Of a DNA stretch of 64,000 bases, positions 12,742-27,325 are shown one piece after another. How positions within the stretch are numbered: position 1 is the first letter of the stretch; each line of letters opens with the position of its first letter. The notes beneath the pieces were generated by a model. The model worked only from the letters and a program-made list of their open reading frames with translations, did no database searches and was not told the DNA's origin. Made by a program: the position numbers and the translations under genes. The DNA is from Escherichia coli (GTDB taxonomy: Bacteria; Pseudomonadota; Gammaproteobacteria; Enterobacterales; Enterobacteriaceae), in assembly GCF_003991155.1 (NCBI RefSeq), contig NZ_CP031293.1. One strand, written 5' to 3'.

Positions 12742-12753
12742 ACGATCAGTAGA

Positions 12754-12783
12754 GGTGAATAGCGACCCACGACGCTATTCACC
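12754..12783. repeat. Perfect 11-bp inverted repeat (GGTGAATAGCG ... CGCTATTCACC) at the lysC 3' end / island junction
   Basis: Seen directly; no adjacent T-run; could be lysC terminator stem or junction element. Confidence 0.5.
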
Positions 12784-12795
12784 ATGCCGGTTCAA

Positions 12796-13143
12796 TTACG
12801 AATTACTGCGGCGCTGTTGCTTTTCCGCATGTACGCGTTTCACAATCTTATAAATCCATTGCAGCGTCAGATTATATTTCTTCGCTAATTCGGCGTAGTT
12901 GCGCCCATCGCACTCGCTATAGATTTGGTAGTCACGCTCCGATGCTCGTCCGGAGATCCCCTTAGGGAAATAAATGCTTTGTCCGCCCCAGTTACGCATC
13001 ATTCGGTCGGCAATGGCAAAGCCCACATTTTCTGCCGATGAACTGTCGAGATTGATGCTTTCAATCAGAACTTGCGATGCATGAAAAGCCAGGTCGTTAA
13101 TGATCTCCGGTGTCCGGGCCATCTCTTTTGATTTTCGTATCAT
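12796..13143 (-). CDS. Mor/C-family (phage Mu middle/late) transcriptional activator
   Basis: 115-aa ORF; C-terminus GGQSIYFPKG...RDYQIYSECDGRNYAELAKKYNLTLQWIYKIVKR matches the conserved Mor/C HTH region (Mu Mor GGGQVYIPRG...RIWNDFNGRNVSELTTRYGVTFNTVYKAIRR); GGAG RBS 7 nt upstream. Confidence 0.8.
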   Translation of the reverse strand: MIRKSKEMARTPEIINDLAFHASQVLIESINLDSSSAENVGFAIADRMMRNWGGQSIYFPKGISGRASERDYQIYSECDGRNYAELAKKYNLTLQWIYKIVKRVHAEKQQRRSNS

Positions 13144-13364
13144 TTTTCATCTCCATATATCTTGCATCCTGAATAAGACCCGATGCGTGTAAAACCACGG
13201 ATATACGCTAAGCAGTTGTCATTACTGCTACTCAATACATTCAACAAACAAATAAACAATTAACAAAAATATAAATTTTTAATATTAATGAACGCCATAA
13301 ATTCATGAAATAGATATATTGTTTGCGTTATGTTTCTTGTCAACAGGTGTATCATTTTACACGA

Positions 13365-13384
13365 TACTGTATACACATACAGTA
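13365..13384. promoter_or_regulatory. LexA operator (SOS box) TACTGTATACACATACAGTA
   Basis: Matches consensus TACTGTATATATATACAGTA at 18/20 with both CTG/CAG half-sites perfect; flanked by inverted TTTTACAC / GTGTAAAA; overlaps a candidate plus-strand sigma-70 promoter (TTTACA-16-TACAGT). Confidence 0.7.
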
Positions 13385-13680
13385 TTATTTTTACTTGTAG
13401 TGTAAAAAGATCGTTTCCCTCACAGTCGCTGACTTTCTTAAACAAACTTTAAAAATCAAATAACTACTGACTATTCCTACGATTCACCATCATCTTTTCC
13501 CTGCATAATGACGCGCTTATTCGCGAGGTCACCTTTTGCTCTTTAATTGCTGAGTGGATTTATTAGCGGGCATGTTCATTTATAGAGAATCTATTTTTTA
13601 AACTTATTTATTAAAGCTTTTTTCATTCTTCACTGGCGGGTTCTGGCGACACTAAACGCTCACTTATCAGGAGATACCGT

Positions 13681-13968
13681 ATGAAAAAAGTCACTCTTCC
13701 CCGGCTTTCCGGTTGGCTGGTCGCTTCCGTCGCGCTGTTTGTCGTGATCGGCTGGACCTCTTCAGCACAAATCCCGGTCGTCATTTATAAACTAAGCCTG
13801 GTTTCGCTTTCCGCGGTGCTGGGATACTGGCTCGATCGCAGTTTGTTCCCCTGGGCACGGCCTGACTCTTTTTGCCCCTGGAAGGAACCGCGTTGCTGCG
13901 CGGCGGCAATGATTCGCCGGGCTATCATCGTTGCTGCCGTCTGCCTTTCCGTCGCGTTAGGGCTATAG
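13681..13968 (+). CDS. Putative holin-like small membrane protein (three predicted hydrophobic segments)
   Basis: 95-aa ORF with hydrophobic helices, immediately upstream of the endolysin gene; function inferred from position. Confidence 0.45.
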   Translation: MKKVTLPRLSGWLVASVALFVVIGWTSSAQIPVVIYKLSLVSLSAVLGYWLDRSLFPWARPDSFCPWKEPRCCAAAMIRRAIIVAAVCLSVALGL

Positions 13969-13970
13969 TG

Positions 13971-14576
13971 ATGTGGCTGAAATATATCGCGTCTATGATT
14001 ATTTTCGTTCTTTTCCCACTCAACGCCTCTGAACCGCCGAGAGCCTCTCTGGCATGGCGAAACGAACTAATTCGTACAGCTCGAGAAGTCTGGGGGCTGA
14101 ATGCCCCAGTGGCCGACTTTGCCGGGCAATTACACCAGGAGTCCGCCTGGCAGCCAATGGTACGTTCCCCCGTTGGCGCACAAGGTATGGCGCAATTTAT
14201 GCCTGCTACAGCGACATGGATAAGCCAGTTGTATCCACAATTGCGTGAAAACAAACCGTATAACCCAACCTGGGCGATTCGCGCGCTGGTGCAATATGAC
14301 CAGCATTTGTGGAAAAACATCTCTGCGAAAAATGATTGTCAGCGTATGGCGTTTACCCTAAGCGCCTATAACGGCGGTCAGGGGTGGGTTAACCGGGATA
14401 AAAAACTGGCTGCATCCAAAGGGTTAGATGCCACTAGCTGGTTTGGTCATGTTGAGCAAGTCAACGCCGGGCGCAGCGCCACGAACTGGCGAGAAAATCG
14501 TCGCTATCCAAAGATGATCCTCTATCAACATGCCGCCCGCTATTTACTCTGGGGACAGGCAAGCTGTCTTCATTAA
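13971..14576 (+). CDS. Endolysin, lytic transglycosylase (SLT domain) with hydrophobic N-terminus (signal or SAR-like)
   Basis: Motifs HQESAW and GAQGMAQFMPATA typical of the SLT catalytic region; start taken at the internal ATG at 13971 just after the upstream ORF stop. Confidence 0.8.
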   Translation: MWLKYIASMIIFVLFPLNASEPPRASLAWRNELIRTAREVWGLNAPVADFAGQLHQESAWQPMVRSPVGAQGMAQFMPATATWISQLYPQLRENKPYNPTWAIRALVQYDQHLWKNISAKNDCQRMAFTLSAYNGGQGWVNRDKKLAASKGLDATSWFGHVEQVNAGRSATNWRENRRYPKMILYQHAARYLLWGQASCLH

Positions 14577-14588
14577 TCAGAGGGGCCG

Positions 14589-14903
14589 ATGAAACTCAGT
14601 ATCGATTTTTGGGAAGTGATCTCCCTTATGCTTTCCTTCGTTGGATTAATGTTTGCTGCCGGAAAACTGCTGTTAGCACAAATTGAAAAACGACTTAATG
14701 AGCGTTTTGAATCTCTGGAAAACGCGCGCCGGGAATCAGAAACAAGTTGGTCGAAACTGGAAAGAGAATTTCTCGAATTTCGTGCCGAGCTTCCGCTGCA
14801 TTATGTCCGCAGAGAAGATTATCTTCGTGGGCAAGCAGTATTAGAAGCGAAGCTGGATGCCTTATATAGCAAAATCGAGCTGTTACAACGTGGCAGTTAT
14901 TGA
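14589..14903 (+). CDS. Putative spanin-like lysis accessory protein (N-terminal TM helix plus coiled coil)
   Basis: 104-aa ORF, N-terminal hydrophobic segment followed by charged coiled-coil-like sequence; position after endolysin. Confidence 0.4.
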   Translation: MKLSIDFWEVISLMLSFVGLMFAAGKLLLAQIEKRLNERFESLENARRESETSWSKLEREFLEFRAELPLHYVRREDYLRGQAVLEAKLDALYSKIELLQRGSY

Positions 14904-14904
14904 A

Positions 14905-14941
14905 AAATCCCCACCCTTATGTAAGGGTGGGGATTTTTTTA
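14905..14941 (+). terminator. Strong rho-independent terminator (ATCCCCACCCTTatgtAAGGGTGGGGAT plus T7) between lysis cassette and tail genes
   Basis: 12-bp perfect stem followed by TTTTTTT; A-run on the other side makes it bidirectional. Confidence 0.7.
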
Positions 14942-15047
14942 ACCATTCAATTTTTTCTCTAAATCACATTAAAAGATTCTTCACCTTCGCTGCTTCAGAA
15001 TACATTTCAACGATAACGAAGTGAGCGGTAATTAAGGTACAGCCTAT

Positions 15048-15503
15048 ATGGAAATTTTATCTGTAATGAATTCTGTTGTGACCAGATTACGTGAACACAA
15101 CTCCGAAATGGATATATTTATTTCATCTAAGGATGCCCAGAAATATATTCCACAGACACAACGAGTTGCAGTGATTATTAATTATAGCGGTTCTGTCTTT
15201 GCTACGCCCGAAAGCAGTAATGCCATCGTGCAACAGCAAATACTCCGCTTAACCGCCACCGTTATTGTTGGCAAAAATTGTGATGCATTAAACGCACTTG
15301 ATCACATACGCAGCGCATTGGGTGGCCTTCAGCTTCCTGATTGCGATCGTCTTCTTTGGCTTGAAAAAGAAATTAATACGGGTGAGAGCGGCGGTTTCTG
15401 CCGCTACATCCTGGAAATGGCGACCAGCTCGCTATTTATCGCTGAACAGGAAAGCACGGATCTTCCCCTGCTTACGGAAGTTAACTACGAGGAAACTGAA
15501 TGA
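15048..15503 (+). CDS. Hypothetical tail-associated protein (first gene of tail operon; possibly tail completion/terminator)
   Basis: 151-aa ORF translationally coupled (ATGA) to the next ORF; role inferred only from position upstream of sheath. Confidence 0.5.
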   Translation: MEILSVMNSVVTRLREHNSEMDIFISSKDAQKYIPQTQRVAVIINYSGSVFATPESSNAIVQQQILRLTATVIVGKNCDALNALDHIRSALGGLQLPDCDRLLWLEKEINTGESGGFCRYILEMATSSLFIAEQESTDLPLLTEVNYEETE

Positions 15504-15697
15504 AATACATCTACAACGGCCCAGCAAGCGGCGTCACCCTTGCCGATGGACAAGAAATCTTATTGTGGCCGAACAGTGAAATTGATCTGCCAGAAGACAA
15601 CGAGTGGGTCATGACCATGATTGCCCGCAATCATCTGACTCCTGTCATCACTCAGGAAGAACAAAATAACGTAGAGGAAATTGTACATGGCAGCTAA
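15500..15697 (+). CDS. Small hypothetical protein (65 aa) preceding tail sheath
   Basis: ORF overlapping neighbours at both ends; typical of small conserved proteins upstream of Mu-like sheath genes. Confidence 0.4.
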   Translation: MKYIYNGPASGVTLADGQEILLWPNSEIDLPEDNEWVMTMIARNHLTPVITQEEQNNVEEIVHGS

Positions 15698-17111
15698 TTA
15701 TCTGCACGGTGTAGAAACTATTGAAATTGAAACCGGCCCGCGTCCGGTTAAAGCGGTAAAATCCGCCGTCATCGCTTTAATCGGTACAGCCCCCTGCGGT
15801 CCGGTAAATAAACCAACATTATGCCTTTCTGAAAGCGATGCTGCGCAGTTTGGCTCGACTCAGGCTAACTTTACGATCCCACAGGCACTGAAGGCAATTT
15901 ATGACCACGGTGCCGGTACGGTGGTGGTGATTAACGTGCTGGATCCGGCAAAACATGGCTCCAACATCAGCAATGAGAGTATCACTTTTGATGCTAACAA
16001 CCAGGCGAAGCTCGCTCACCGCAATGTGCGTAACGTGGTACTAAAGCCCTCTTCATCAAATTCATCAACCTTTAACACCGCAGCATTTAGCGTAGATGAA
16101 CAAACAGGCATAATTACCCGTAAAGGAGCCGACATTCCTCCTGGTGCGAAAGTTTGTGCCTATTATTCCTGGTGCGACCCTACAAAGGTCACCGCAGCCG
16201 ATATTATCGGTACCGTAAATACCGCAGGCGACCGCACGGGGATGAAACTGCTACAGGACACCTATAACCTGTATGGTTTCTACGCCAAAATCCTGCTTGC
16301 TCCCGTGTTCTGTACGCAAAAATCAGTAACTACAGAGCTGATTGCACAAGCGGAAAAACTTGGTGCGATTACCTACATTGATGCCCCGATTGGGACGACA
16401 TTCCAGCAGGTATTGGCAGGACGCGGTTCGCAAGGGGCTATCAACTTCAACACCAGCTCTGATCGTGCGCGTTTATGTTACCCACACGTCAAAGTTTACG
16501 ATGGCATCACTAACCAGGAAGTTCTCGAACCGCTCTCTTCGCGCGCTGCCGGGCTACGTGCCAAAGTAGACCTCGAAAAAGGTTTCTGGTGGAGCAACTC
16601 AAACCAAGAAATTCAGGGTATTACCGGTATTGAACGTTCGCTTTCCGCAATGATTGATGATCCACAAAGCGAAGTGAATCAGCTAAACGAAAACGGCATT
16701 ACCACTATTTTCAATAGTTACGGCTCTGGTCTGCGCTTGTGGGGCAACCGCACTGCAGCGTGGCCTACCGTGACCCATATGCGTAACTTTGAAAACGTCC
16801 GCCGGACAGGCGATGTAATTAATGAGTCAATCCGTTATTTCAGTCAGCAGTATATTGATATGCCGATTAATCAGGCGCTGATTGATGCCCTGACCGAATC
16901 GGTAAATACCTGGGGCCGTAAGCTGATTGCCGACGGCGCACTGCTTGGCTTTGAATGCTGGTACGATCCGGCGCGAAATTCACCGACTGAACTCAGCGCT
17001 GGGCATTTATTGCTGAGCTATAAATTCACCCCACCGCCGCCGCTGGAACGTCTGACGTTTGAAACTGAAATTACTTCTGAATATTTAGTCTCTCTGGAGA
17101 GCAATAGCTAA
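15687..17111 (+). CDS. Contractile phage tail sheath protein
   Basis: About 474-aa ORF starting MAANYLHGVETIEIETGPRPV...; size and N-terminal motif typical of Mu gpL / P2 FI-type sheath proteins; RBS GAGGAAA upstream of the ATG at 15687. Confidence 0.85.
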   Translation: MAANYLHGVETIEIETGPRPVKAVKSAVIALIGTAPCGPVNKPTLCLSESDAAQFGSTQANFTIPQALKAIYDHGAGTVVVINVLDPAKHGSNISNESITFDANNQAKLAHRNVRNVVLKPSSSNSSTFNTAAFSVDEQTGIITRKGADIPPGAKVCAYYSWCDPTKVTAADIIGTVNTAGDRTGMKLLQDTYNLYGFYAKILLAPVFCTQKSVTTELIAQAEKLGAITYIDAPIGTTFQQVLAGRGSQGAINFNTSSDRARLCYPHVKVYDGITNQEVLEPLSSRAAGLRAKVDLEKGFWWSNSNQEIQGITGIERSLSAMIDDPQSEVNQLNENGITTIFNSYGSGLRLWGNRTAAWPTVTHMRNFENVRRTGDVINESIRYFSQQYIDMPINQALIDALTESVNTWGRKLIADGALLGFECWYDPARNSPTELSAGHLLLSYKFTPPPPLERLTFETEITSEYLVSLESNS

Positions 17112-17635
17112 TGGCTGGAAAAATTCAAATTAACCGTATTACCAACGCCAATATTTATCTCGATGGTAATAACCTTTTAGGTCGTGCAACCGAAATTAAA
17201 TTGCCGGATGTCAGTTTAATTATGCAGGAGCATAAAGCACTGGGCATGGTGGGTAAAATCGAACTCCCGGCGGGTTTCGATAAACTGGAGGGCGAAATTA
17301 AATGGAACTCCTTCTATCAGGACGTAATGCGTAAAACGGCAAACCCGTGGCAGGCGGTTGCATTACAGTGCCGCTCCAGTATTGATTGCTATAACTCCCA
17401 GGGGAAAGCGAATCAATTAGCGCTAGTGACACATTTAACCGTGATGTTTAAAAAGAATCCACTGGGCACATTTAAACAGAATGAAAACCCGGAATTCAGC
17501 AGCGCCTTTGGTTGCACTTATATTAAACAAGTAGTTGATGGTGAAACGCTGCTTGAACTTGATTATATGGCCAATATTTTCCGGGTTAATGGTGTGGATC
17601 AATTAAGTACCTATCGCAATAACATCGGTGGCTAA
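17111..17635 (+). CDS. Phage tail tube protein
   Basis: 174-aa ORF directly following sheath (TAATG overlap); sheath-tube order conserved in contractile tails. Confidence 0.8.
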   Translation: MAGKIQINRITNANIYLDGNNLLGRATEIKLPDVSLIMQEHKALGMVGKIELPAGFDKLEGEIKWNSFYQDVMRKTANPWQAVALQCRSSIDCYNSQGKANQLALVTHLTVMFKKNPLGTFKQNENPEFSSAFGCTYIKQVVDGETLLELDYMANIFRVNGVDQLSTYRNNIGG

Positions 17636-17685
17636 GTTATTCGGGGCTACGGCCCCGAACTTTGCAAAATAAATAAGGACACAAA

Positions 17686-18003
17686 ATGAAAGAACATTAT
17701 ATCTTACAGTTCCCGTTTACTTCAGCGGCGGGAGACGTAATTAACACTCTGCAATTACGTCGCCTGAAAGTAAAAGATATGCGCAACGCGCGCCGGATCA
17801 GCGAAAAACCTGAAGAGTGGGATGAACCGCTAATGGCGGCAATGACCGGACTGGTGCCAGAAGATTTAGCTGAAATGGATTTGCTGGATTACCAGGCATT
17901 GCAGAAACGATTTCAATCCATGCTTAGCGTGGCTACAGAATCCGCCACTGTTATGGCAAGCGATGGCGTTACTGGCGAGATGGTTTCGCTTTCCACCCAG
18001 TGA
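17686..18003 (+). CDS. Putative tail assembly chaperone (gpE-like position)
   Basis: 105-aa acidic ORF between tube and tape measure genes. Confidence 0.5.
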   Translation: MKEHYILQFPFTSAAGDVINTLQLRRLKVKDMRNARRISEKPEEWDEPLMAAMTGLVPEDLAEMDLLDYQALQKRFQSMLSVATESATVMASDGVTGEMVSLSTQ

Positions 18004-18192
18004 GATAGACGCCCTTACCGTCGATGACTTTAGCAACTGGCTGGATGAAGCCAGCGCCCAAATAAAAATCGAATATGACTCGCAGACCTGATGTCTGCGA
18101 GTTTCCCAAGCCCGTCAGGTTTATTTCTTCCCTGCCCCTTTTTTTAGAAAAATAACCAGCGGGCCATTATCAATATTTAAAGAGAAACAATT

Positions 18193-20568
18193 TTGGCCAA
18201 CGATATTATTACCCAGCTTCAGGCGCGTAATGAGACGTTGACGCAGGCAATAGCCCGTTACGGCTCACTCAACGCCAGAACATTGTTAACTCTCTCTACT
18301 CAGCAGGCGACAGTTATCAAACTAACGCAGCAGCTTGCCGATTCCGCTCTCCGCCTGGAGGAAAATAGCCGCAGCCGCGCTAATCTGATGGAGAAAACCC
18401 AAACATTTGCCGGGCAATTTAGCAAAGTATTCAATGTTGAAGCCCCCGACTGGAAGTTGCCGTATGAGTTTCAGGACAACATGGTCAATATGGCGACCAA
18501 AGGTGGGATGAATGCTACAACCCGCGAGACGCTCAGCCTTAATCTGCGCGACTGGAGCATGGATTTTAACCAGCAGCAGACCACCTTACAGAACGCAGCC
18601 CAAACGCTGATCGAAGGCAATTTGTCGTCGATACAGGATCTCAACCGTTATATGCCGGAGATCGCCAAAGCTGCCACCGCCACGCGCGAAAGTGCTGAAA
18701 CATGGGCGAATGCCGCGCTCGCAACCCATGATCGACTGAATATTGCCCCGGAAAATTTCCACGCCGCGCAAAACATGATGTACGGCATTAGCAAAAGCGG
18801 TGGGCCTGCCATTGCTGAACAAACGCAGTGGATAGAGAAATTTGCAGGTAAAACCGGCGCTCAGGGTCTGGAAGGTATGGCTGAACTGACCGCCACCATG
18901 CAGATCGCCATGAAAAACGGGGCCAGCGCCAGTGCGGCGGCGGAGAATTTCGACCACTTTCTGCAAACCACCTTTTCGAAAAAAACCGATTACTGGTTCG
19001 TCAGCCAGGGCGTTGATCTGCAAGGCTCTCTGCTTGAGCATCAGCAAAACGGTATGGGTGTTAGCGAAGCCATGACTCATATCGTGCAAATGCAGCTTGA
19101 GAAGATGAATCCGGCGATCCTCGACACCTTCAAACGCACCATGCAGATCGAAGATTTATCTGCCCGCAGCAATGCGCTGCAATCGATGGTGACGCAGTTT
19201 AATCTGGGGGAAATGTTCGGCGATGCGCAAACAGTGGAATTCCTGGCCCCTATGCTGGCGAATATGGAGGAATATCGCCAGTTAAAAGCCTCTGCCATGC
19301 AAGCCACCAGCAAGAATCTGATTGATGCCGACTTTTCTGCGCAAATGGCCTCGCCCATTGAACAGACTAAAGCGTTACAGCTGGCGTTAAATGATTTATG
19401 GCTCAGCATTGGCTTGCAATTAATGCCGCTGATTGGCGAGCTGGCACAAAGCCTTACGCCGGTTATTCGTCAGTTCAGCGCCTGGCTACGTGAGCACCCG
19501 ACACTGGTGCAAAACATCGCGAAAATCGTCGGGGCGATTTGGCTGTTTAACGGTGCGCTGAATGTTTTAAAGCTGGGCGCGAACCTCATCACCTCGCCGT
19601 TTATTCGTCTGGTCGATATCTTCCTGAAAGTCAAGGCAAGTCTGGCGCTCACAGGCGGGGCAAGTAAGATGCTATCAGCGGTTAAGTCATTGGGTGGCGG
19701 CGCAAAATGGCTAACGCAACTGCTTGGTCGTGGCCTGATTGGAACATTGAAACTGGTTGGTCGGACCGTTCTCTCACTAGGCCGGGTGCTACTGATGAAT
19801 CCCATTGGTCTGGTCATCACTGCGATTGCGGGCGCTGCTTATCTGATTTATCGCAACTGGGAGCCTATCTCCAGGTTCTTTTCGACCATCTGGCAACGTA
19901 TCACCACGGCCTTTGACGGCGGCATTGCAGGAATTTGTCGGTTGATTCTCGACTGGTCACCGCTGGAGTTGTTCTATAGCGCCTTTTCCAGTGTGATGAA
20001 TTGGTTTGGTGTCGAGATGCCTGCAAGTTTTAGCGAGTTCGGCAGCAATCTTCTGGGCAGTCTGGTTGACGGCATAATGAATGCCTTCCCCGCTCTGAAA
20101 GGCATTATTGATCAGGTAAAAAACGCCATCCCAGACTGGCTAAAAACCACGATGGGTATTAGTACAGAAGGATCGGCTACAGCTATTACAAGCACGACTA
20201 ATACCGCATCCGTCTCCCCCGCGACCGTTGTTCCAGGCGTTGCCGGTGCGATTTTAACGCCGCCGGTGGGCAAACAACTCGCGCCATCCGGCAAAACGGC
20301 TACGCCGTCATCGGCGCCAGCGGCAAAAAATACAGCCGCCAAACCCGTATCTGCCTCTTTACCTGGTAAATCCGTAACCAAAGCGGCGACGCTACCTTCC
20401 CGTTCCTCAGGAAAAGTTCAGGTGAATTTTTCGCCACAAATTACCGTGCAGGGTAACGGACAAAACACCACTAAAGAGATTCAGAACGTGTTGACGATGA
20501 GTAAACGCGAACTGGAAAGAATGATTAACGATGTAATGGCGCAGCAGCAGCGCCGGGGGTATGCCTAA
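18193..20568 (+). CDS. Tail tape measure protein
   Basis: 791-aa ORF, alpha-helical and Ala/Gln-rich with central hydrophobic segments; position after chaperone; start codon uncertain (TTG at 18193 in track). Confidence 0.8.
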   Translation: MANDIITQLQARNETLTQAIARYGSLNARTLLTLSTQQATVIKLTQQLADSALRLEENSRSRANLMEKTQTFAGQFSKVFNVEAPDWKLPYEFQDNMVNMATKGGMNATTRETLSLNLRDWSMDFNQQQTTLQNAAQTLIEGNLSSIQDLNRYMPEIAKAATATRESAETWANAALATHDRLNIAPENFHAAQNMMYGISKSGGPAIAEQTQWIEKFAGKTGAQGLEGMAELTATMQIAMKNGASASAAAENFDHFLQTTFSKKTDYWFVSQGVDLQGSLLEHQQNGMGVSEAMTHIVQMQLEKMNPAILDTFKRTMQIEDLSARSNALQSMVTQFNLGEMFGDAQTVEFLAPMLANMEEYRQLKASAMQATSKNLIDADFSAQMASPIEQTKALQLALNDLWLSIGLQLMPLIGELAQSLTPVIRQFSAWLREHPTLVQNIAKIVGAIWLFNGALNVLKLGANLITSPFIRLVDIFLKVKASLALTGGASKMLSAVKSLGGGAKWLTQLLGRGLIGTLKLVGRTVLSLGRVLLMNPIGLVITAIAGAAYLIYRNWEPISRFFSTIWQRITTAFDGGIAGICRLILDWSPLELFYSAFSSVMNWFGVEMPASFSEFGSNLLGSLVDGIMNAFPALKGIIDQVKNAIPDWLKTTMGISTEGSATAITSTTNTASVSPATVVPGVAGAILTPPVGKQLAPSGKTATPSSAPAAKNTAAKPVSASLPGKSVTKAATLPSRSSGKVQVNFSPQITVQGNGQNTTKEIQNVLTMSKRELERMINDVMAQQQRRGYA

Positions 20569-21521
20569 TGTATGCCGTTTTAGGAGAGATTGAATTTAAG
20601 GTTGTCACATTCTGGGACGGCTTTAAAAGCACAATGGGCGTGGATTACGCCACACATGCCCGTATAGAAGGCAAACCCGGCGTGCAGTTTATTGGCGATA
20701 AGCTGGATATGCTGGCGCTGGAATTTTCCCTGCACAGCCAGTTTTGCCAGCCCACAACAGAGCTGAACCGACTGCGTGAAGCCATGCTTGCTCACAAGGC
20801 GATGGCACTGGTATTTGGCAATGGCGATTATCGCGGCTGGTTTGTGATTACGGAGCTAACCGCCACCCACCAGCACACCGATCCCTGGGGCAATGTGATT
20901 GCCCAAAACGGAACGATGTCGCTCCAGGAGTACACCGGCGATCCTAAAAATCCACTTTTACCTCCGGCGATTACCACCCAGGAGCCCAACATCGAGGAAA
21001 AGGCGAGCGATTTTCCCGACAAGGTGGAGTCCTGGTTTGATCAGATATTAAACGCCATTGAAGAAGGTATGCGTAAGGCCAAAGAGATGCTGGATGAACT
21101 GACACAATCCATTGAAGATATTAAAAAAACGGTGGCAAAAGTGAAAGCAATGATTAAAGAGGCCAAAGCGTTAAAAGAAAAGTGTGAAAAGATAATTACG
21201 TCATTGAAAAAGACAATCGACGCCATCGAAACCCTGTTTAAACAGCCAATGGATCTGCAAACGCTGGCAGGCCTACCAAAAGCGTTGTCGGCGCAGATTA
21301 AAGCTTTACTGGGTAACATGCCAGGTATCCGGGACTGCGCCAATGACGCCAGTACGCTGGTTGACCATGCTCAGGCGCTTTTCGACGACATTACCAGCGA
21401 CATCGCCGAAGCGACGTTCGATAAAGCCACGTCGTTGGTTGAGCAGGCACGTACAACGGTACAACAAACCACTCCCGCAGTGAGCCAGCTTGCTGCCGTA
21501 ACCATTACCAGGAGCTGGTAA
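20568..21521 (+). CDS. Tail protein, P2 gpU-like N-terminal domain with coiled-coil C-terminal extension
   Basis: N-terminal region (ARIEGKPGVQFIG...WFVITELTATHQHT) resembles the P2 gpU / Mu N N-terminal family; overlaps TMP stop. Confidence 0.7.
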   Translation: MYAVLGEIEFKVVTFWDGFKSTMGVDYATHARIEGKPGVQFIGDKLDMLALEFSLHSQFCQPTTELNRLREAMLAHKAMALVFGNGDYRGWFVITELTATHQHTDPWGNVIAQNGTMSLQEYTGDPKNPLLPPAITTQEPNIEEKASDFPDKVESWFDQILNAIEEGMRKAKEMLDELTQSIEDIKKTVAKVKAMIKEAKALKEKCEKIITSLKKTIDAIETLFKQPMDLQTLAGLPKALSAQIKALLGNMPGIRDCANDASTLVDHAQALFDDITSDIAEATFDKATSLVEQARTTVQQTTPAVSQLAAVTITRSW

Positions 21522-21730
21522 TGCGATACCTTGAACATATCACCACCGATGGCGAACGCTGGGATAACCTGGCATGGCATTACTACGGTGATGCGCTGGC
21601 TTATGAACGCATAATCGCCGCCAATCCACATGTAGCCATTTACCCGGTACTGCCTTCCGGTATTCAGCTCATTATTCCGGTCATTTCCGTTAATAAAACC
21701 TTATCGGAGATCCCACCATGGCTGAGATGA
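21521..21730 (+). CDS. Tail protein X-like (small LysM-like tail protein)
   Basis: 69-aa ORF with AANP...LP.G pattern as in P2 gpX; located between U-like and D-like genes as in R-type pyocin clusters. Confidence 0.7.
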   Translation: MRYLEHITTDGERWDNLAWHYYGDALAYERIIAANPHVAIYPVLPSGIQLIIPVISVNKTLSEIPPWLR

Positions 21731-22758
21731 GCGTAACTGGTGGCGTCTTTGCCACACTCACGCCCATTTTTACCCTCTGGTATGGGCATAAAGATATCAC
21801 TTATGACATCACACCCTATGTCACCAGCATCAGTTACCACGACAGCATCAAAAACGAGTCGGATACCATCGCAATTACACTGGATGACACAGATGGACGC
21901 TGGATAAAAGAGTGGTATCCCGGCAAAGGCGATACGCTGGCGCTGCATATAGGTTATCAGGGGGAAAAGCTGCTCGATTGTGGCCAGTATATTATTGATA
22001 AAATTGATATTTCAGCGCCACCTTCCACGGTAAATATTGATGGCATCGCCACTTCCGTCAATCAGGCGCTGCGCACCCGTAACAGCCAGGGCTTTGAAGA
22101 AACGACGCTTTCGGCGATCGCCAGCCGTATTGCCCAAACGCACGGTCTGAAACTGGTGGGCAAAATCGAGTCGCTCACCATCGACCGGGTAACGCAGTAT
22201 GGTGAAACCGATGTCGGATTTCTCAAACGTCTGGCCAGTGAATATGGTTATGCCGTAAAAGTGACGACAAAAGAGCTGATTTTTTCACATTTACCCACGC
22301 TGCGCTGCCTGACGCCTGTGAAAAAGATCGATCGCAAAGAGGTTTCTCATTTTACCTTCAAAGACACCATTAACCGGATCTACAAGAACGCCACCGTACA
22401 GCATCAAAATAGTAAGAAAAAAGAACTGGTTATCTACACTCACAACAGCCAGCAAAAACCATCTGTCCGTGGAGTCGGCACTAGTGCCGACACGCTAAAA
22501 CTGAACAGTCGGGCGACGGACGTTGGCGCAGCACAGGCAAAGGCTAACGCTGCACTCGACAGCCACAACGAATATCAGCAAACCGGAACGCTCACAATGA
22601 TGGGCTGCCCGGAACTGACGGCGGGCAATAAAATTGAACTGACCGATTTTGGCGTGATTTCCGGTCAGTGGCTGATTGATAAATCTACTCACAGTTTTGT
22701 GCGCAGCGGCTATACCACTGAAATCGACGTGTCACGCGGGCCAGCGACCAGCCAGTAA
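21718..22758 (+). CDS. Phage late control D-like / Mu gpP-like tail (baseplate hub) protein
   Basis: 346-aa ORF in the conserved U-X-D position. Confidence 0.75.
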   Translation: MAEMSVTGGVFATLTPIFTLWYGHKDITYDITPYVTSISYHDSIKNESDTIAITLDDTDGRWIKEWYPGKGDTLALHIGYQGEKLLDCGQYIIDKIDISAPPSTVNIDGIATSVNQALRTRNSQGFEETTLSAIASRIAQTHGLKLVGKIESLTIDRVTQYGETDVGFLKRLASEYGYAVKVTTKELIFSHLPTLRCLTPVKKIDRKEVSHFTFKDTINRIYKNATVQHQNSKKKELVIYTHNSQQKPSVRGVGTSADTLKLNSRATDVGAAQAKANAALDSHNEYQQTGTLTMMGCPELTAGNKIELTDFGVISGQWLIDKSTHSFVRSGYTTEIDVSRGPATSQ

Positions 22759-22767
22759 GGAGGAAAT

Positions 22768-23469
22768 ATGAAAGGAGTAACCCGTCAAACGGGGATTATC
22801 AGCGATATTGACGAAACCAGTGTTCGGGTACGGGTCACTCTACCAGAGTGTGACAATCTGAAGAGCAACTGGCTTGCGGTACTTCAACGCAATTCCCAGG
22901 ACAATAAAGACTACTGGCTACCGGATATGGGCGAGCAAGTGGAAGTTCTGCTGGACGATAACGGTGAAGATGGCGTGGTGCTGGGTGCCGTTTATTCTAC
23001 GGTTGACACCGCGCCTGTAGCCTCGCGCGACAAACGTTACGTCCAGTTTTCTGATGGCGCAGCGTTTGAATATGACCGCAGCACGCACCAGCTGACGATT
23101 AACGGCGGTATCGAGAAAATCGTGATTGAGGTTATCGACAGCACCCGCCTGACATCGCCCAACGTTGAGATTAAAGCCCAACACGTCACCGTGACTTCCG
23201 ATACCGTCGATGTTAAAGCGACCGATGTCAGCATCGACGCCACTAAGGTCGAGGTTAAAGCAGCAGCAGTGACGGTAGATGCGCCCATGAGCACCTTTAC
23301 TGGCAACGTCACGGTAATGAAAAAACTCACCTGGCTTGGCGGGATGGCAGGAAGTGGAGGCATCGGTAACGCAGCCACGATAACCGGCAATGTCAACGTG
23401 ATCGGCAACGTTCAGGCCAGCGGCGCATTGCAGGACAGCGGTGGCAACTCCAACCACCATTCACACTGA
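22768..23469 (+). CDS. Baseplate assembly protein V-like (central spike)
   Basis: 233-aa ORF; N-terminal OB-fold-like region and C-terminal repetitive beta region (VTVTSDTVDVKATDVSIDATKVEVKAAAVTVDA) typical of gpV spikes. Confidence 0.8.
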   Translation: MKGVTRQTGIISDIDETSVRVRVTLPECDNLKSNWLAVLQRNSQDNKDYWLPDMGEQVEVLLDDNGEDGVVLGAVYSTVDTAPVASRDKRYVQFSDGAAFEYDRSTHQLTINGGIEKIVIEVIDSTRLTSPNVEIKAQHVTVTSDTVDVKATDVSIDATKVEVKAAAVTVDAPMSTFTGNVTVMKKLTWLGGMAGSGGIGNAATITGNVNVIGNVQASGALQDSGGNSNHHSH

Positions 23470-23472
23470 CTT

Positions 23473-23505
23473 TTAACCCGCCTGATGGCGGGTTTTCTCT
23501 TTTTA
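23473..23505 (+). terminator. Hairpin (AACCCGCCtgatGGCGGGTT) plus T-rich tract after the spike gene; possible partial intra-operon terminator
   Basis: Perfect 8-bp stem followed by TTCTCTTTTT. Confidence 0.5.
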
Positions 23506-23567
23506 ATCAATCAGTTTTCTAAATCGCTTTAATATCTCCACAGCCCGTTCAGGGCGAAAATACCCTC

Positions 23568-23927
23568 ATGAACACAAAAACACGCCCCTCAACGCTGCAC
23601 TGGCAACCGGCCTTGCAGCGGCCTGAAGAATACGTCTGCGGGCTGGATGATATTCACCAGGCAATACACATCATTCTGCGTACACCGCGCGGCAGTGATC
23701 CCCACAGACCGCTGTTTGGCAGCAACTTGTGGCACTACATCGATTACCCCATCGAGCGGGCTATCCCGCATGTGGTACGGGAGTCGGTGGAAGCCATCCG
23801 CCAGTGGGAACCGCGCTGTCGGTTGCTGAAGGTGACACCAGTAATCGACGGCGAACATCTGACGTTACGTGTGCAATGGCGCGCCGCTGACGGCGTTATC
23901 AACTCAACGGAGGTGTTATGGCGATAG
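23568..23927 (+). CDS. Baseplate wedge protein gpW / gp25-like
   Basis: 119-aa ORF; PRGSDPHRPLFGSNLWHYIDYP resembles the GPW_gp25 family core. Confidence 0.75.
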   Translation: MNTKTRPSTLHWQPALQRPEEYVCGLDDIHQAIHIILRTPRGSDPHRPLFGSNLWHYIDYPIERAIPHVVRESVEAIRQWEPRCRLLKVTPVIDGEHLTLRVQWRAADGVINSTEVLWR

Positions 23928-25033
23928 CCGAACCCAATTTTATTGACCGCGATCCTGCGCAAATTACCAGTGAGATGATTGCGCAATACGAAGATGCCAG
24001 TGGTAAAAAACTCTATCCGGCACAGGCTGAGCGGTTGCTCATCGACCTGTTTGCCTATCGTGAAAACCTTGTACGCATCGCCATTCAGGAAGCGGCGAAA
24101 CAAAACCTGGTCGCGTATTCCCGCGCGCCAATGCTGGATTATTTAGGGGAGTTGGTGGGAGTTCACCGTTTGCCTGCGCAGCCTGCAAAAACGACGTTGC
24201 AGTTTTCGGTCGTTAGTGCGTATCCCGGCAATATCCTGATTCCCCAGGGGACGCGGGCCAGTGCCTCTGATAGCGTGATGTTCGCCACCGATGAAGATGT
24301 TCTGCTTCCGGCCAGGAGTTTGCATATCGCCGTTCCTGCCACCAGCCTCGCAGCAGGTGAACAGGGTAACGGCTGGCAGCCTGCACAAATTAGCGCACTG
24401 GTCGACAGGATTGGTCATTATGACATCAACGTAACCAACCTGACTGCGTCAACGGGCGGCTGCGGTGAAGAGAGCGATGACGCATTGCGCCAGCGTATCC
24501 AACTGGCACCAGAAAGCTTTAGTAATGCGGGCAGCTATGGTGCCTACCGCTTTCATACGCTTTCTGTTAGCCAGTCGATTATTGACGTTGCAGTACTGGG
24601 GCCGGACGAGGGATTGCCAGAAGGCTGCGTGGAGATCTACCCGCTAACCCTGAATGGTCTACCCGGCACGGAGTTGCTGGCGCAGATTGAACAAGAAGTC
24701 AGCAAGGAGAAAAAACGACCGCTGACCGACAAAGTGAGTGCGAAATGCGCTCTTCGAGTGCCGTATGAGATCCGTGCGCAGCTAATGCTGTTTACCACCG
24801 CCGATCAGGAGACAACGCTGGCTGCGGCGCGTAAAGCGATTAGCCTCTGGACGCAACAGCGGCAGAAACATCTGGGGCAGGACATTGTGCCAAACCAGAT
24901 AATCAAAGTGTTACAGGTCGATGGCGTCTATGACGTTGCGCTGAATATGCCTACAAAACGTATTTTGCAGGCGCATGAATGGGCGGAATGCACTGCAATA
25001 GACGTCACGATTGCCGGAGTCAGCGATGGATAA
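23918..25033 (+). CDS. Baseplate protein J-like
   Basis: 371-aa ORF after gpW with GGAGG RBS; W-J-I order. Confidence 0.8.
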   Translation: MAIAEPNFIDRDPAQITSEMIAQYEDASGKKLYPAQAERLLIDLFAYRENLVRIAIQEAAKQNLVAYSRAPMLDYLGELVGVHRLPAQPAKTTLQFSVVSAYPGNILIPQGTRASASDSVMFATDEDVLLPARSLHIAVPATSLAAGEQGNGWQPAQISALVDRIGHYDINVTNLTASTGGCGEESDDALRQRIQLAPESFSNAGSYGAYRFHTLSVSQSIIDVAVLGPDEGLPEGCVEIYPLTLNGLPGTELLAQIEQEVSKEKKRPLTDKVSAKCALRVPYEIRAQLMLFTTADQETTLAAARKAISLWTQQRQKHLGQDIVPNQIIKVLQVDGVYDVALNMPTKRILQAHEWAECTAIDVTIAGVSDG

Positions 25034-25742
25034 ATTGCTGCCACCGCCGCCGCTTGCCAGCGATGAGCGTTTTTCGATTCTGGCAAACATCGCCGCCGAG
25101 CGTTTTGCCCAACTCGATCTGACGGCGTTGATGGTTTATCTGGTCGACCTGGTTGATGCTTCGGCATTACCAGCCCTTGCAGAACAATTTCACGTTCAGG
25201 GGCTGGAAGGTTGGTTATTTACCACCGATGAGCGGGAGAAACGCGAGTTAATTAAACAAGCCATTGAACTGCATAAATATAAAGGAACAATTTGGGCGGT
25301 ACGGCGAGTGCTGGAAATACTTTCCTTACCCGGAACTATTTCAGAATGGTTTGAATATGGGGGAAGGGCTTATTTTTTTAAGGTAAATATTACACTAGAG
25401 GAAAAAGGATTAAATGAAGATGAATTCAATGCACTTATCACATTAATTCATGAATATAAAAATGTTCGTTCAAAGCTGGAAAGCATTGTTATTTGGCTTA
25501 TTAATCGAAGCCCAATACCAGTTATTGGCAGCGCCATGCAAGGAGGGGAAGTCATTACAGTATTGCCTCCTGTTGCAGAAAGCCTCAGCCAGTCATCAGG
25601 AATATTTTTAGCGACGGGTTATTGTGTGGAGGAATATATCCAACTACTACCTTATCAACCCGATCGCCTTACACAATCCCAACCGATGAAGGTCGGCACA
25701 GGATACTGGAGCACCGAAATTATGTCTGTATATCCGGAGTAA
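25026..25742 (+). CDS. Tail protein I-like (baseplate)
   Basis: About 238-aa ORF from ATG 25026 overlapping J stop; position before tail fiber. Confidence 0.7.
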
Positions 25743-25744
25743 TA

Positions 25745-27325
25745 ATGGCAAGTGAATTTTTTACAATATTAACTGCTGCAGGCAAAGCCAAAATTGCCTC
25801 AGCACTGGCCGAGCAAAAACAGATCCGTCTGCAAACTATGGTAGTTGGCGACGGTAATGGTAAATATATCGAACCGACAGAAAGTCAGACCAAAGTAGTC
25901 CATGAGGTCTGGCGTGGTCAGCTCAATACATTAAAAATTGCGCCAGATAATCCGGCCTGGGTTATCGCAGAAGCGATTATTCCCGAACAAGTCGGAGGCT
26001 GGTATGTACGCGAAGTTGGGTTACTGGATACCGACGGCACGCTGGTCGCTATTGGTAAATTCCCGGAAACCTATAAGCCACGATTACCTGCGGGGGCCAG
26101 TAAGCAAATCGTTATACGCGCGGTCATGGAAGTCACCAATGCAGACGCGGTGACGCTTTTGATCGACCCTTCAGTCGTTGTGGCAACCAGGGAATATGTC
26201 GATGACGCGTTGAAAACACATCAGCAATCACGAAATCATCCTGATGCGACGCTGACACAAAAAGGTTTTACGCAGCTCAGTAATGCAACTAATAGCGATG
26301 ATGAGACTAAAGCAGCCACGCCAAAAGCGGTAAAAACGGCATATGACCTGGCAAATAGCAAAGCCGCAACCAGTCATACTCATGCCTGGAATCAGATTAC
26401 TGGTATCCCTGACGGTACACTGACGCAGAAAGGAGTCGTTAAACTTAACAACACAACAAATAGCACCAGTACAACGGAAGCTGCAACGCCAAGTGCGGTT
26501 AAAGCAGCGATGGACAAGGCTATTGCTGCGGCGCCGTCCAGCCATACCCATGCCTGGGGGCAAATAACAGGTATCCCCGACGGTACGCTGACACAAAAAG
26601 GGGTCGTGAAACTTAATAATGCGACCAACAGCACCAGTACGACGGAAGCTGCGACGCCGAACGCGGTTAAGGCAGCGATGGATAAGGCTATTGCTGCGGA
26701 AAGCTGTCCTGTTGGGATGCCTATTCCCTGGCCATCTGATTCTGTACCTTCAGGCTACGCTCTGATGACAGGTCAGACATTTAATAAAACCTCCTATCCC
26801 AAACTGGCAATTGCATATCCATCTGGTGTTATTCCTGATATGCGCGGATGGATAATTAAAGGAAAACCATCCAGTGGGCGCGCTATATTATCTACTGAAC
26901 TGGATGGAGTTAAATCACATAACCATACGGGCAGTATTTCGAGTACTGATTTAGGGACGAAAACCACACCCCTCACAGACTTGGGGACTAAAACTGCATC
27001 ATCATTTAACCATGGAAATAAAACAACAAGTTCATCTGGCTCAGGCTCGGCAACTGCAACAGTAAGAACAGGGACATCTTCACCAGAGGGCCAAGGCGAC
27101 TGGACATCATATGGCCCTGGTACCGGATCATCTTTGGCAATTAATGTTCCATCACACGTTCATAGTGTTACAATTGGTTCCCATTCGCACACTGTTGCGC
27201 TCGGCACCCATTCGCATTCAATTGCACTTGGTTCCCATAACCACTCCCTAACCATTAATAATACCGGCAGCACCGAAAACACCGTCAAAAATATCGCATT
27301 CAACTATATTGTGAGGCTAGCATGA
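25745..27325 (+). CDS. Tail fiber protein (P2 gpH-like N-terminal anchor, repeat region, His-x-His tip)
   Basis: N-terminus [23 protein letters not shown]...HEVWRGQLN...[12 protein letters not shown] resembles the conserved P2 H N-terminal domain; three tandem ~45-aa repeats; C-terminal [22 protein letters not shown]. Confidence 0.85.
26244..26700 (+). repeat. Intragenic tandem repeats (three ~135-bp units) within the tail fiber gene
   Basis: Repeated [12 protein letters not shown](A/T)[12 protein letters not shown](S/N)[12 protein letters not shown]...HTHAW(N/G)QITGIPDG seen at DNA and protein level. Confidence 0.7.

What the first reader, a model, noticed from the sequence alone, without database searches (positions are those of the whole stretch)
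13144..13680. Near-consensus LexA (SOS) box in the divergent control region between the Mor-like gene and the lysis/tail genes
TACTGTATACACATACAGTA (13365-13384) differs from the LexA consensus only in the central AT spacer. It sits in a 537-bp strongly AT-rich intergenic region between the minus-strand Mor-family activator and the plus-strand lysis cassette, overlapping a candidate plus-strand promoter (TTTACA-16-TACAGT) and flanked by an inverted TTTTACAC/GTGTAAAA pair. This suggests DNA damage directly de-represses the element via LexA (without a phage repressor), possibly feeding through Mor to the late promoters. Which transcription unit the box controls is not resolvable by eye.
Basis: seen in the sequence. 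Interest (0 to 1): 0.6.

Follow-up and report, generated by a model that had tools for sequence, protein, structure and literature searches.

The report
SOS switch of a headless phage-tail cluster
A near-perfect binding site for the DNA-damage repressor LexA lies in front of the only regulator gene of a headless phage-tail (tailocin-like) gene cluster next to lysC in E. coli, and its conservation in Salmonella and other genera suggests that DNA damage switches on tail production and cell lysis.

Summary
TACTGTATACACATACAGTA lies at 13365-13384. It has two mismatches to the 20-mer LexA consensus, none expected by chance, and is the only strong LexA-like site in 64 kb.

It sits in the 537-bp AT-rich gap between a Mor/C-family activator gene (minus strand) and a holin/endolysin cassette followed by a full contractile-tail gene set. 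There are no head, transposase or repressor genes. The element looks like a BcepMu-like transposable prophage reduced to mor plus lysis plus tail, at the same lysC site in several genera.

Across E. coli, Salmonella (STM4198-STM4219), Phytobacter and Superficieibacter the gap has largely diverged. The LexA box with its adjoining 10 bp is the second most conserved island, and all box variation is confined to its central four bases.

The lysis and tail operons have their own promoters without a -35 hexamer. They share register or motif with BcepMu late promoters, about 270 bp or more from the box.

Best reading: LexA represses mor; DNA damage lets Mor be made; Mor turns on lysis and tail genes. 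Published Salmonella RNA-seq shows the mor ortholog up 4-fold with nalidixic acid, but not the late genes. Which strand the box controls remains inferred. I class it as a new variant of a known kind, of moderate interest.

The parts
12796..13143 (-). mor-like gene (115 aa), a Mor/C-family transcription activator and the only regulator gene in the element
   Evidence: Pfam Mor 7.9e-38. PDB 1rr7 Mu Mor 5e-8 and Mu C 6.9e-5. PHROG 532 'late transcriptional activator' 1.2e-35. RefSeq annotation.
13365..13384 (.). LexA (SOS) box TACTGTATACACATACAGTA
   Evidence: Conserved in orthologs, with variation only in the central 4 nt.
13354..13395 (-). Candidate LexA-repressed mor promoter. -10 TAAAAT (13359-13354), weak -35 CTGTAT inside the box (13382-13377), and an A-tract just upstream (13385-13395, read on the minus strand). 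Predicted start near 13347.
   Evidence: The block GTGTAAAATG abutting the box is conserved in all box-bearing lineages. My own approximate sigma-70 score is 9.5 bits. This part is inferred, not mapped.
13356..13383 (+).
   Evidence: 10.4 bits. It is built from the same conserved bases, so conservation cannot tell the two directions apart.
13433..13457 (.). Conserved block of unknown role (+ strand CTTAAACAAACTTTAAAAATC)
   Evidence: Conserved in E. coli, Salmonella and Phytobacter, and partly in Enterobacter. It resembles the late-promoter repeat but is out of register.
13593..13653 (+). Lysis-operon promoter without a -35 hexamer. Conserved block ATTTTTTAAACTTATTTATTAAAG (13593-13616), then exactly 31 bp, then a -10-like GACACT (13648-13653), 27 nt before the holin ATG.
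   Evidence: The spacing is identical in every lineage examined (E. coli read by hand). It is the most conserved 20-bp window of the gap, 0.97. It shares register with the BcepMu holin promoter.
13681..14903 (+). Lysis cassette: holin (13681-13968), SLT-type endolysin (13971-14576), membrane protein (14589-14903)
14909..14940 (+). Intrinsic-terminator-like hairpin CCCCACCC-N8-GGGTGGGG followed by a T run, after the lysis cassette
   Evidence: Read from the sequence. A hairpin plus T run sits at the same place in most orthologs.
14960..15001 (+). Tail-operon promoter of BcepMu late type: TAAATCACATTAAAAG (14960-14975), 20 bp, then -10 CAGAAT (14996-15001)
   Evidence: Exact match to TAAA-N4-ATTAAAAG. 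The same motif and 20-bp spacing occur in Salmonella, Phytobacter and Superficieibacter. BcepMu carries TAAAGCCGATTAAAAG twice, upstream of holin gp21 and of gp32.
15048..28481 (+). Contractile-tail gene set in Mu/BcepMu order: gp37-like, sheath, tube, chaperone, tape measure, baseplate, fibre and accessory genes. No head genes.
   Evidence: RefSeq annotation of an identical locus. PHROGs. Gene order compared with BcepMu.
23526..23535 (+). GCTTTAATAT upstream of the gpW-like baseplate gene, after a terminator-like hairpin. The same string lies upstream of BcepMu gp49.
   Evidence: by eye only.

Best explanation
The box is a working LexA operator. It is the master switch of a domesticated BcepMu-like phage-tail (R-type tailocin-like) cluster.

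**Uninduced cells.** A LexA dimer on 13365-13384 blocks a weak promoter that reads leftward into mor. That promoter has -10 TAAAAT right next to the box, its -35 region inside the box, and an A-tract upstream.

**After DNA damage.** RecA-stimulated LexA cleavage frees the promoter and Mor is made. Mor then activates the -35-less late promoters of the lysis operon (about 13593-13653) and the tail operon (14960-15001). Tails are built and the cell lyses.

**Evolutionary reading.** The whole early region of the ancestral phage (transposase, repressor and the rest) has been replaced by one host operator.

**Shown here.**
- The site, its strength and its conservation.
- The gene content of the element.
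- The conserved geometry of the late promoters and their likeness to BcepMu.

**Inferred.**
- That LexA binds the site.
- The direction of the repressed promoter.
- That Mor is the activator of the late promoters.
- That particles are made.
For: **Site strength.** Two mismatches to the consensus, 0 of 100 shuffles give a match, approximate HI 2.7, next best site in the window 10.6.

**Conservation.**
- The box is present in orthologous elements at the same lysC locus: E. coli variants, full Salmonella clusters, Phytobacter, Superficieibacter and a metagenomic relative.
- The arms CTGTAT/ATACAG never vary in any box-bearing sequence examined. All changes are in the central 4 nt.
- In a five-lineage alignment with mean pair identity 0.45, the box's right half plus GTGTAAAATG scores 0.94. 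That exceeds the windows at the two gene starts, about 0.82.

**No other regulator.** None is annotated in the element. In BcepMu, and in a Pasteurella bettyae relative by ORF layout, the mor homolog is the last gene of a long early operon with no promoter of its own. No strong LexA-like site (approximate HI below 11) lies near mor in six Pasteurellaceae loci.

**Late operons have their own promoters.**
- Lysis promoter: the conserved block lies exactly 31 bp from GAYACT, and GAYACT lies 26-27 nt from the ATG, in all lineages. This is about 270 bp from the box.
- Tail promoter: it follows a terminator, carries the BcepMu motif TAAA-N4-ATTAAAAG, and lies 20 bp from its -10.
- In BcepMu the pattern TAAA-N4-ATTAAAAG gives 3 hits at up to 2 mismatches against 0.23 expected; two of them are the identical 16-mer TAAAGCCGATTAAAAG.
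- Only one LexA site exists in the element, so SOS control of the tail genes needs a trans-acting relay.

**Fit to the Mor/C family.** Mu Mor and C activate promoters that have a -10 but no -35, from a 16-bp element centred at -43.5 (PMC4390567; PMC2582627).

**Expression data.** In S. Typhimurium 14028 RNA-seq (PMC8072944, Dataset S1), STM14_5073 rises from 49 to 204 TPM (4.08-fold) with nalidixic acid. It is 348 bp, on the plus strand, at the position expected for STM4219. No neighbouring STM14_505x-507x gene is in the list of differentially expressed genes. This favours mor over the holin as the gene next to the derepressed promoter.
Against: - No binding or transcription data exist for E. 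coli.
- The minus-strand promoter has a poor -35 (2 of 6). It failed the consensus scan, which flagged only the plus-strand promoter.
- The predicted mor leader is about 200 nt, which is long.
- In the Salmonella data the late genes are not induced although mor is. The second step of the cascade is therefore unsupported there, and about 1,090 genes are 'up' because the two cultures also differ in growth state.
- The authors of that study did not list STM14_5073 among genes with an SOS box within 400 bp. I could not check that strain 14028 itself carries the box.
- An Enterobacter relative keeps the whole cluster but has no LexA-like site.
- A profile of the lysis-promoter block finds no significant second copy in the element. 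The link between the lysis and tail promoters rests on shared register, not on statistics.
Confidence: 0.6

Rival explanations
1. LexA represses the plus-strand promoter TTTACA-16-TACAGT (start near 13390). DNA damage then drives a long-leader transcript straight into the holin/endolysin operon. mor is expressed independently, or LexA controls both overlapping divergent promoters from one shared operator, as at ssb-uvrA.
For: - It is the only sigma-70-like hit in the scan: 9 of 12 matches with the key -10 bases.
- It has the best conserved-promoter score in my rough model, 10.4 bits.
- Its -35 and -10 are conserved in all box-bearing lineages.
- No terminator is predicted between it and the holin gene.
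Against: - Its conserved bases are the LexA half-site and the same 10-bp block that would serve the minus-strand promoter, so conservation is not independent evidence.
- The lysis operon has its own strictly conserved promoter 26-27 nt from the ATG.
- Expressing the lysis genes at the same time as mor would risk lysis before tails are made.
- In Salmonella RNA-seq the genes next to mor are not among those induced by nalidixic acid, while mor is.
- One promoter-like hit is fewer than the 2.8 expected by chance in this region.
Confidence: 0.25
2. The box is a functionless relic or a chance palindrome in AT-rich DNA, for example the leftover operator of a deleted SOS-inducible phage gene. The cluster is silent or controlled by something else, such as H-NS-type silencing of AT-rich DNA.
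For: - The Enterobacter version of the cluster lacks the box.
- Many Salmonella genomes keep an orphan mor without it.
- The late genes are not induced in the Salmonella data set.
- The gap is very AT-rich.
Against: - No match in 100 shuffles at this level of similarity.
- The box is kept in four genera while the flanks diverged. Substitutions are confined to the positions LexA tolerates.
- The loss in Salmonella is by deletion of the whole cluster, not by decay of the box.
Confidence: 0.07
3. The box controls an unannotated small gene or small RNA inside the gap rather than mor or the lysis operon.
For: - The distances to both flanking start codons are long, 221 and 296 bp.
- A conserved block of unknown role lies at 13433-13457.
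Against: - No Rfam family matches inside the gap. The few weak hits lie at the terminator near 14900.
- The short ORFs have no conserved counterpart, because the surrounding sequence is not alignable between genera.
- No terminator is predicted in the gap.
Confidence: 0.05

Closest known systems
R-pyocin control in Pseudomonas aeruginosa (PrtR represses prtN; PrtN activates the pyocin genes)
   Same: It is a two-tier SOS relay for a headless contractile tail with its own lysis genes. A RecA-sensitive repressor holds down a small activator gene, and the activator turns on the structural and lysis operons (summarised in PMC12066065).
   Different: Here the repressor would be the host's own LexA, acting at a canonical SOS box, rather than an element-encoded LexA-like PrtR. 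The activator belongs to the Mor/C family, not PrtN. The tail is of Mu/BcepMu type rather than P2 type. No homology is implied.
Phage Mu / BcepMu late-gene control by Mor/C-family activators
   Same: The activator is a family member. The target promoters have a -10 but no -35, and a conserved upstream element in the -50 to -33 region. The tail promoter carries the very motif repeated in BcepMu. The gene order matches BcepMu.
   Different: In Mu and BcepMu, mor is the last gene of an early operon governed by a phage repressor. Here the early operon, the repressor and the head genes are gone, and mor stands alone behind a LexA box. There is one activator instead of Mu's Mor-then-C pair, as in BcepMu.
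Host LexA acting directly on phage or bacteriocin genes: coliphage 186 tum, Gifsy antirepressors and dinI homologues, colicin operons (my own knowledge; Gifsy dinI genes are also listed in PMC8072944)
   Same: A canonical SOS box in mobile-element DNA ties induction directly to host LexA, without a cleavable phage repressor.
   Different: In those cases LexA controls an antirepressor, an accessory gene or the toxin/lysis operon itself. Here the target would be the late-gene activator of a tail-only element.
The 'BcepMu-like incomplete prophage' of Salmonella Typhimurium (STM4198-STM4219)
   Same: It is the ortholog of this element: same lysC site, same genes, and a near-consensus box in the full Salmonella clusters examined. 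It is reported as ancestral and unusually invariant in S. Typhimurium (PMC7302871).
   Different: It has been described only as a prophage remnant. I found no paper on its regulation or on particle production. The Salmonella copy in L022 (serovar Infantis SARB27) carries gtrABC inserted between baseplate genes.

Membership tests
E. coli-type LexA operator (SOS box) | 20-bp palindrome TACTG(TA)5CAGTA with invariant CTG...CAG arms | tested here: met
   18 of 20 match, and both CTGTAT/ATACAG arms are intact.
E. coli-type LexA operator (SOS box) | Low heterology index, in the range of proven operators | tested here: met
   HI 2.7 with a matrix built from 26 sites recalled from memory (approximate). 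recA scores 4.8, and the next site in the window 10.6. PMC12527982 places the E. coli binding class around HI 7 and the non-binding class around 22.
E. coli-type LexA operator (SOS box) | Overlaps the core promoter of the regulated gene | tested here: inconclusive
   It overlaps predicted promoters on both strands. No start site has been mapped.
E. coli-type LexA operator (SOS box) | LexA binding, and RecA/LexA-dependent induction | not testable with these tools
   The only indirect evidence is that the Salmonella ortholog STM14_5073 is up 4.08-fold with nalidixic acid.
Mor/C family of phage transcription activators | Mor domain: N-terminal dimerisation region plus C-terminal helix-turn-helix | tested here: met
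   Pfam PF08765 7.9e-38 over residues 10-112. Mu Mor 1rr7 5e-8, Mu C 6.9e-5.
Mor/C family of phage transcription activators | Acts on promoters with a -10 but no -35, through an upstream element overlapping the -35 region | tested here: inconclusive
   Two such conserved promoters exist in the element. Binding by this protein has not been shown.
R-type tailocin (phage tail-like bacteriocin) | Complete contractile-tail gene set with fibres | tested here: met
   Sheath, tube, chaperone, tape measure, baseplate and fibre genes are all open in the window.
R-type tailocin (phage tail-like bacteriocin) | No capsid, packaging, replication or integration genes | tested here: met
   Annotation of the identical locus. 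Comparison with BcepMu shows that gp02-gp20 and gp26-gp36 are missing.
R-type tailocin (phage tail-like bacteriocin) | Own lysis cassette | tested here: met
   Holin, SLT endolysin and a membrane protein. No Rz/Rz1 pair was recognised.
R-type tailocin (phage tail-like bacteriocin) | Particles are released and kill related bacteria | not testable with these tools
   No experimental report was found.
PrtR/PrtN pyocin regulatory module | Element-encoded LexA-like repressor and PrtN-type activator | tested here: not met
   No repressor gene is present in the element, and the activator is Mor-type. It may work like this module but is not a member.

The most novel reading that the evidence does not exclude
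A transposable BcepMu-like phage was domesticated into a tail-only weapon. It has been kept at the lysC locus across several enterobacterial genera. Its entire early region and repressor were replaced by a single host LexA operator in front of the late activator. That would make a minimal LexA -> Mor -> (lysis + tail) circuit, and a previously uncharacterised SOS-inducible tailocin of E. coli and Salmonella.
Probability: 0.5. Interest if true: 0.55.

Novelty: new variant of a known kind. Interest (0 to 1): 0.45.

Why it matters
- **An undescribed weapon.** About 3.5% of complete E. coli genomes (188-196 of 5,426), and Salmonella lineages including S. Typhimurium, carry this cluster. If the reading is right, E. 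coli and Salmonella have a chromosomal, SOS-inducible contractile bacteriocin that has not been described.
- **Clinical angle.** DNA-damaging antibiotics such as quinolones would trigger lysis and killing of competitors in carriers.
- **A model of domestication.** A phage regulatory cascade would have been cut down to one host operator plus one activator.
- **Easy to test.** The switch is small enough to check with a few reporter fusions.
- **Natural knock-outs.** Repeated ISL3 insertions exactly in the operator would be natural knock-outs of the switch.

Tried and rejected
- **Flanking inverted pair TTTTACAC/GTGTAAAA.** Rejected as a feature. The distal arm varies within E. coli and is absent elsewhere.
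- **Profile (nhmmer) of the lysis-promoter block against the E. coli and Salmonella elements.** Nothing significant beyond the block itself.
- **First motif search with the wrong spacing (N5).** It found nothing relevant. The correct spacing is N4.
- **Rfam search of 12700-15100.** Only sub-threshold hits, all on the terminator hairpin.
- **Short ORFs in the gap.** None is conserved.
- **A second mor promoter nearer the gene.** A perfect TTGACA at 13343-13338 (minus strand) with a poor -10 is specific to E. coli and not conserved.
- **The published 'ST131 tailocin' (PMC9205054).** It is a different, P2-like prophage with head genes.
- **Pasteurellaceae Mor homologs.** No strong LexA-like site lies near mor in six loci. 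In the one locus whose ORFs I listed (L006), mor sits inside a co-directional operon. They are not informative about the box.
- **Literature searches for this element's regulation.** Nothing found.
- **Frye et al. 2005 (LT2 plus mitomycin C arrays).** The paper is not held.

Full report
**1. The observation**

The sequence TACTGTATACACATACAGTA lies at 13365-13384. It differs from the 20-mer LexA consensus only at two central positions.
- A search with up to three mismatches finds this site alone in 64 kb, and none of 100 shuffles gives a match.
- The bare core CTGT-N8-ACAG is not rare by itself: one found, 0.58 expected.
- I rebuilt a heterology-index matrix from 26 E. coli operators that I recalled from memory, so it is approximate. 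The site scores 2.7, better than recA (4.8) or sulA (3.7). The next best site in the window scores 10.6. PMC12527982 reports that E. coli sites fall into a binding class around HI 7 and a non-binding class around 22.
- The gap 13144-13680 is 537 bp with 33.5% GC, against 51.5% for the window.

**2. What the surrounding element is**

The window is E. coli chromosome (mal operon, pgi, lysC). Directly after lysC comes a 15.7-kb insert:
- a minus-strand Mor-family gene, then the gap;
- on the plus strand a holin, an SLT-type endolysin and a membrane protein;
- a gp37-like gene, sheath, tube, chaperone, tape measure, baseplate and fibre genes.

No capsid, packaging, transposase, integrase or repressor gene is annotated.

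The regulator is a clear Mor/C-family protein: Pfam 7.9e-38, Mu Mor structure 1rr7 5e-8 and Mu C 6.9e-5, and PHROG 'late transcriptional activator'. Its nearest phage relatives are BcepMu-like, at 49% identity.

In BcepMu the homolog gp01 is the last gene of the leftward early operon. The holin and SLT genes open the rightward late genes. Head genes gp26-gp36 lie between the lysis genes and gp37. The E. coli element therefore reads as a BcepMu-like prophage that has lost gp02-gp20 and the head block. That makes it a tail-only, tailocin-like cluster.

It is present in 188-196 of 5,426 complete E. coli genomes, always on the chromosome.

**3. Related loci**

The same cluster sits next to lysC-pgi in several other lineages:
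- Salmonella, where it is STM4198-STM4219;
- Phytobacter and two Superficieibacter species;
- Enterobacter;
- a metagenomic relative.

The gap between mor and the holin gene has largely diverged. Mean pair identity is 0.45 over five lineages. Two islands stand out: a block about 65-90 bp upstream of the holin ATG (0.97), and the right half of the LexA box plus the adjoining GTGTAAAATG (0.94). Both exceed the windows at the two gene starts, which score about 0.82.

Every box-bearing sequence I examined keeps CTGTAT and ATACAG. All differences lie in the central four bases:
- E. coli: ACAC, ACAT, GCAC or GTAC;
- Salmonella: read on the mor strand (the reverse complement of the window's plus strand), ATAC, ATGC or ATAT. 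One Salmonella copy carries the perfect 16-bp consensus core CTGTATATATATACAG;
- evidence.

Exceptions:
- The Enterobacter copy has the cluster but no LexA-like site.
- Many Salmonella genomes have lost the whole cluster and the box, keeping an orphan mor.
- Mor homologs in Pasteurellaceae (45% identity) have no strong LexA-like site nearby. In the one locus whose ORFs I listed, mor lies inside a co-directional operon.

**4. Which unit does the box control?**

The sequence alone does not settle this. Two overlapping promoters are possible.
- Plus strand: TTTACA-16-TACAGT. It is the only hit of the consensus scan, in a region where 2.8 hits are expected by chance.
- Minus strand: CTGTAT-17-TAAAAT, with an A-tract upstream.

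My rough scoring gives 10.4 and 9.5 bits. Both use the same conserved bases, so conservation cannot separate them. Three lines of indirect evidence favour mor.

First, the lysis operon has its own promoter. In every lineage the block ending ATTAAAG lies exactly 31 bp from a -10-like GAYACT, which lies 26-27 nt from the holin ATG. The spacer sequence between them varies, and there is no -35 hexamer (E. coli read). This promoter is about 270 bp from the box.

Second, the lysis cassette ends in a strong hairpin plus T run (14909-14940). The tail genes then start behind TAAATCACATTAAAAG (14960-14975), followed by 20 bp and CAGAAT.
- The same motif and spacing occur in Salmonella, Phytobacter and Superficieibacter.
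- BcepMu carries TAAAGCCGATTAAAAG twice, upstream of its holin gene and of gp32. Counting hits with up to 2 mismatches there are three, against 0.23 expected.
- When aligned on the -10, the TAAA(G) half-site falls at -48 to -44 in the BcepMu holin promoter and in both promoters of the enterobacterial element.
- The BcepMu -10 lies 27 nt from its holin ATG, the same distance as in E. coli.
- Mu Mor and C act on exactly this kind of promoter: a -10, no -35, and a 16-bp element centred at -43.5 (PMC4390567; PMC2582627).

There is one LexA site and at least two separate late promoters. SOS control of the tails therefore needs a relay, and Mor is the only candidate encoded in the element.

Third, published RNA-seq of S. 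Typhimurium 14028 (PMC8072944, Dataset S1) is informative.
- It lists STM14_5073 as up 4.08-fold with nalidixic acid, from 49 to 204 TPM. This gene is 348 bp, on the plus strand, about 23 kb from lexA, as expected for STM4219.
- No other STM14_505x-507x gene appears among the differentially expressed genes.
- A LexA-controlled rightward transcript should have raised the holin gene as well.

**5. Caveats**

- The Salmonella experiment also differs in growth state, and about 1,090 genes are 'up'.
- The late genes were not induced there.
- The authors did not list this gene among those with an SOS box within 400 bp.
- I could not confirm the box in strain 14028 itself. All seven full-cluster Salmonella places returned, plus L017 and the SARB27 locus L022 (nine loci in all), have it.
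- The minus-strand promoter has a weak -35 and a leader of about 200 nt.
- A profile of the lysis-promoter block finds no significant second copy.
- Nothing here shows that LexA binds, that Mor activates, or that particles are made.

**6. Comparison with known systems**

- **Logic.** The circuit resembles PrtR-PrtN control of R-pyocins: a RecA-sensitive repressor, then an activator, then tail and lysis genes (PMC12066065). The parts differ. Here the repressor is host LexA at a canonical box, the activator is Mor-type, and the tail is BcepMu-type.
- **Ancestry.** It is a BcepMu-like phage remnant. In Salmonella it is already catalogued as an ancestral, invariant 'BcepMu' prophage (PMC7302871).
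- **Prior work.** I found no paper on its regulation. The published ST131 'tailocin' is a different, P2-like prophage.

**7. Verdict**

I put a functional LexA operator at about 0.85, mor as its main target at about 0.65, and the whole chain at about 0.6. I class it as a new variant of a known kind, of moderate interest.

Noticed in passing
window 13371-13378; L034 (CREC-544), L035 (AR_0013), L021 (AF14): ISL3-family elements are inserted at exactly the same 8 bp, the centre of the LexA box. They are ISKox3 in one orientation and ISEc53 carrying a ClbS/DfsB gene in the other. The 8-bp duplications are ATACACAT, ATGTACAT and ATGCACAT, so these are independent events. About 11 of 196 carrier genomes have a split gap. 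Each insertion destroys the operator and separates the -35 and -10 of both candidate promoters.
   Followed up: partly
L013/L014 2495-3000 (Enterobacter): This relative keeps mor, the lysis genes and the tail genes at lysC. It has no LexA-like site (best HI in the locus is 15), and its lysis-promoter block is altered. TAAAATG is still present where the box would abut it. How this copy is controlled is unknown.
   Followed up: partly
L011, L012, L023, L025, L028 (Salmonella): Many Salmonella genomes have lost the whole tail cluster and most of the gap, including the box. An orphan mor remains next to a hexapeptide-transferase gene.
   Followed up: partly
L022 5451-8286 (Salmonella Infantis SARB27): The Salmonella copy carries a gtrABC-type O-antigen glucosylation operon between the baseplate V-like and W-like genes. 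In E. coli that position holds only a terminator and the GCTTTAATAT string.
   Followed up: no
L001 23494-25869 (strain 2016C-3878); window 18193-20568: The tape-measure gene is open in the window (791 codons). In strain 2016C-3878 a single base difference creates a stop at codon 509, and RefSeq marks the gene there as a pseudogene. Some carriers may therefore be defective.
   Followed up: partly
window 13433-13457: A conserved block (CTTAAACAAACTTTAAAAATC) sits between the box and the lysis promoter. It resembles the late-promoter repeat TAAAG-N5-TAAAAG but with 11-bp instead of 10-bp spacing, and no conserved -10 follows it. Its role is unknown.
   Followed up: partly
window 13316-13343, minus strand: A perfect TTGACA with a 16-bp spacer and a weak CAATAT lies just downstream of the box on the mor side. 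It is specific to E. coli; other genera have GTGAAG there. It could give E. coli some LexA-independent mor transcription.
   Followed up: no
window 28496-30420, minus strand: A nucleotidyltransferase-domain gene and a slipin-family gene lie directly after the tail cluster, on the opposite strand. Whether they belong to the insert, or form a defence pair, was not examined.
   Followed up: no
PMC8072944 Table 1 versus Dataset S1: The Salmonella SOS-regulon study shows STM14_5073 (the mor ortholog) up 4-fold. It does not list the gene among those with an SOS box within 400 bp, although full-cluster Salmonella loci carry a near-consensus box about 226 bp upstream. Either strain 14028 differs or the cross-reference missed it.
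   Followed up: partly
window 11104-11300: The lysine riboswitch upstream of lysC is present, as annotated in RefSeq for the identical locus (L001 16405-16601). This is ordinary.
   Followed up: no
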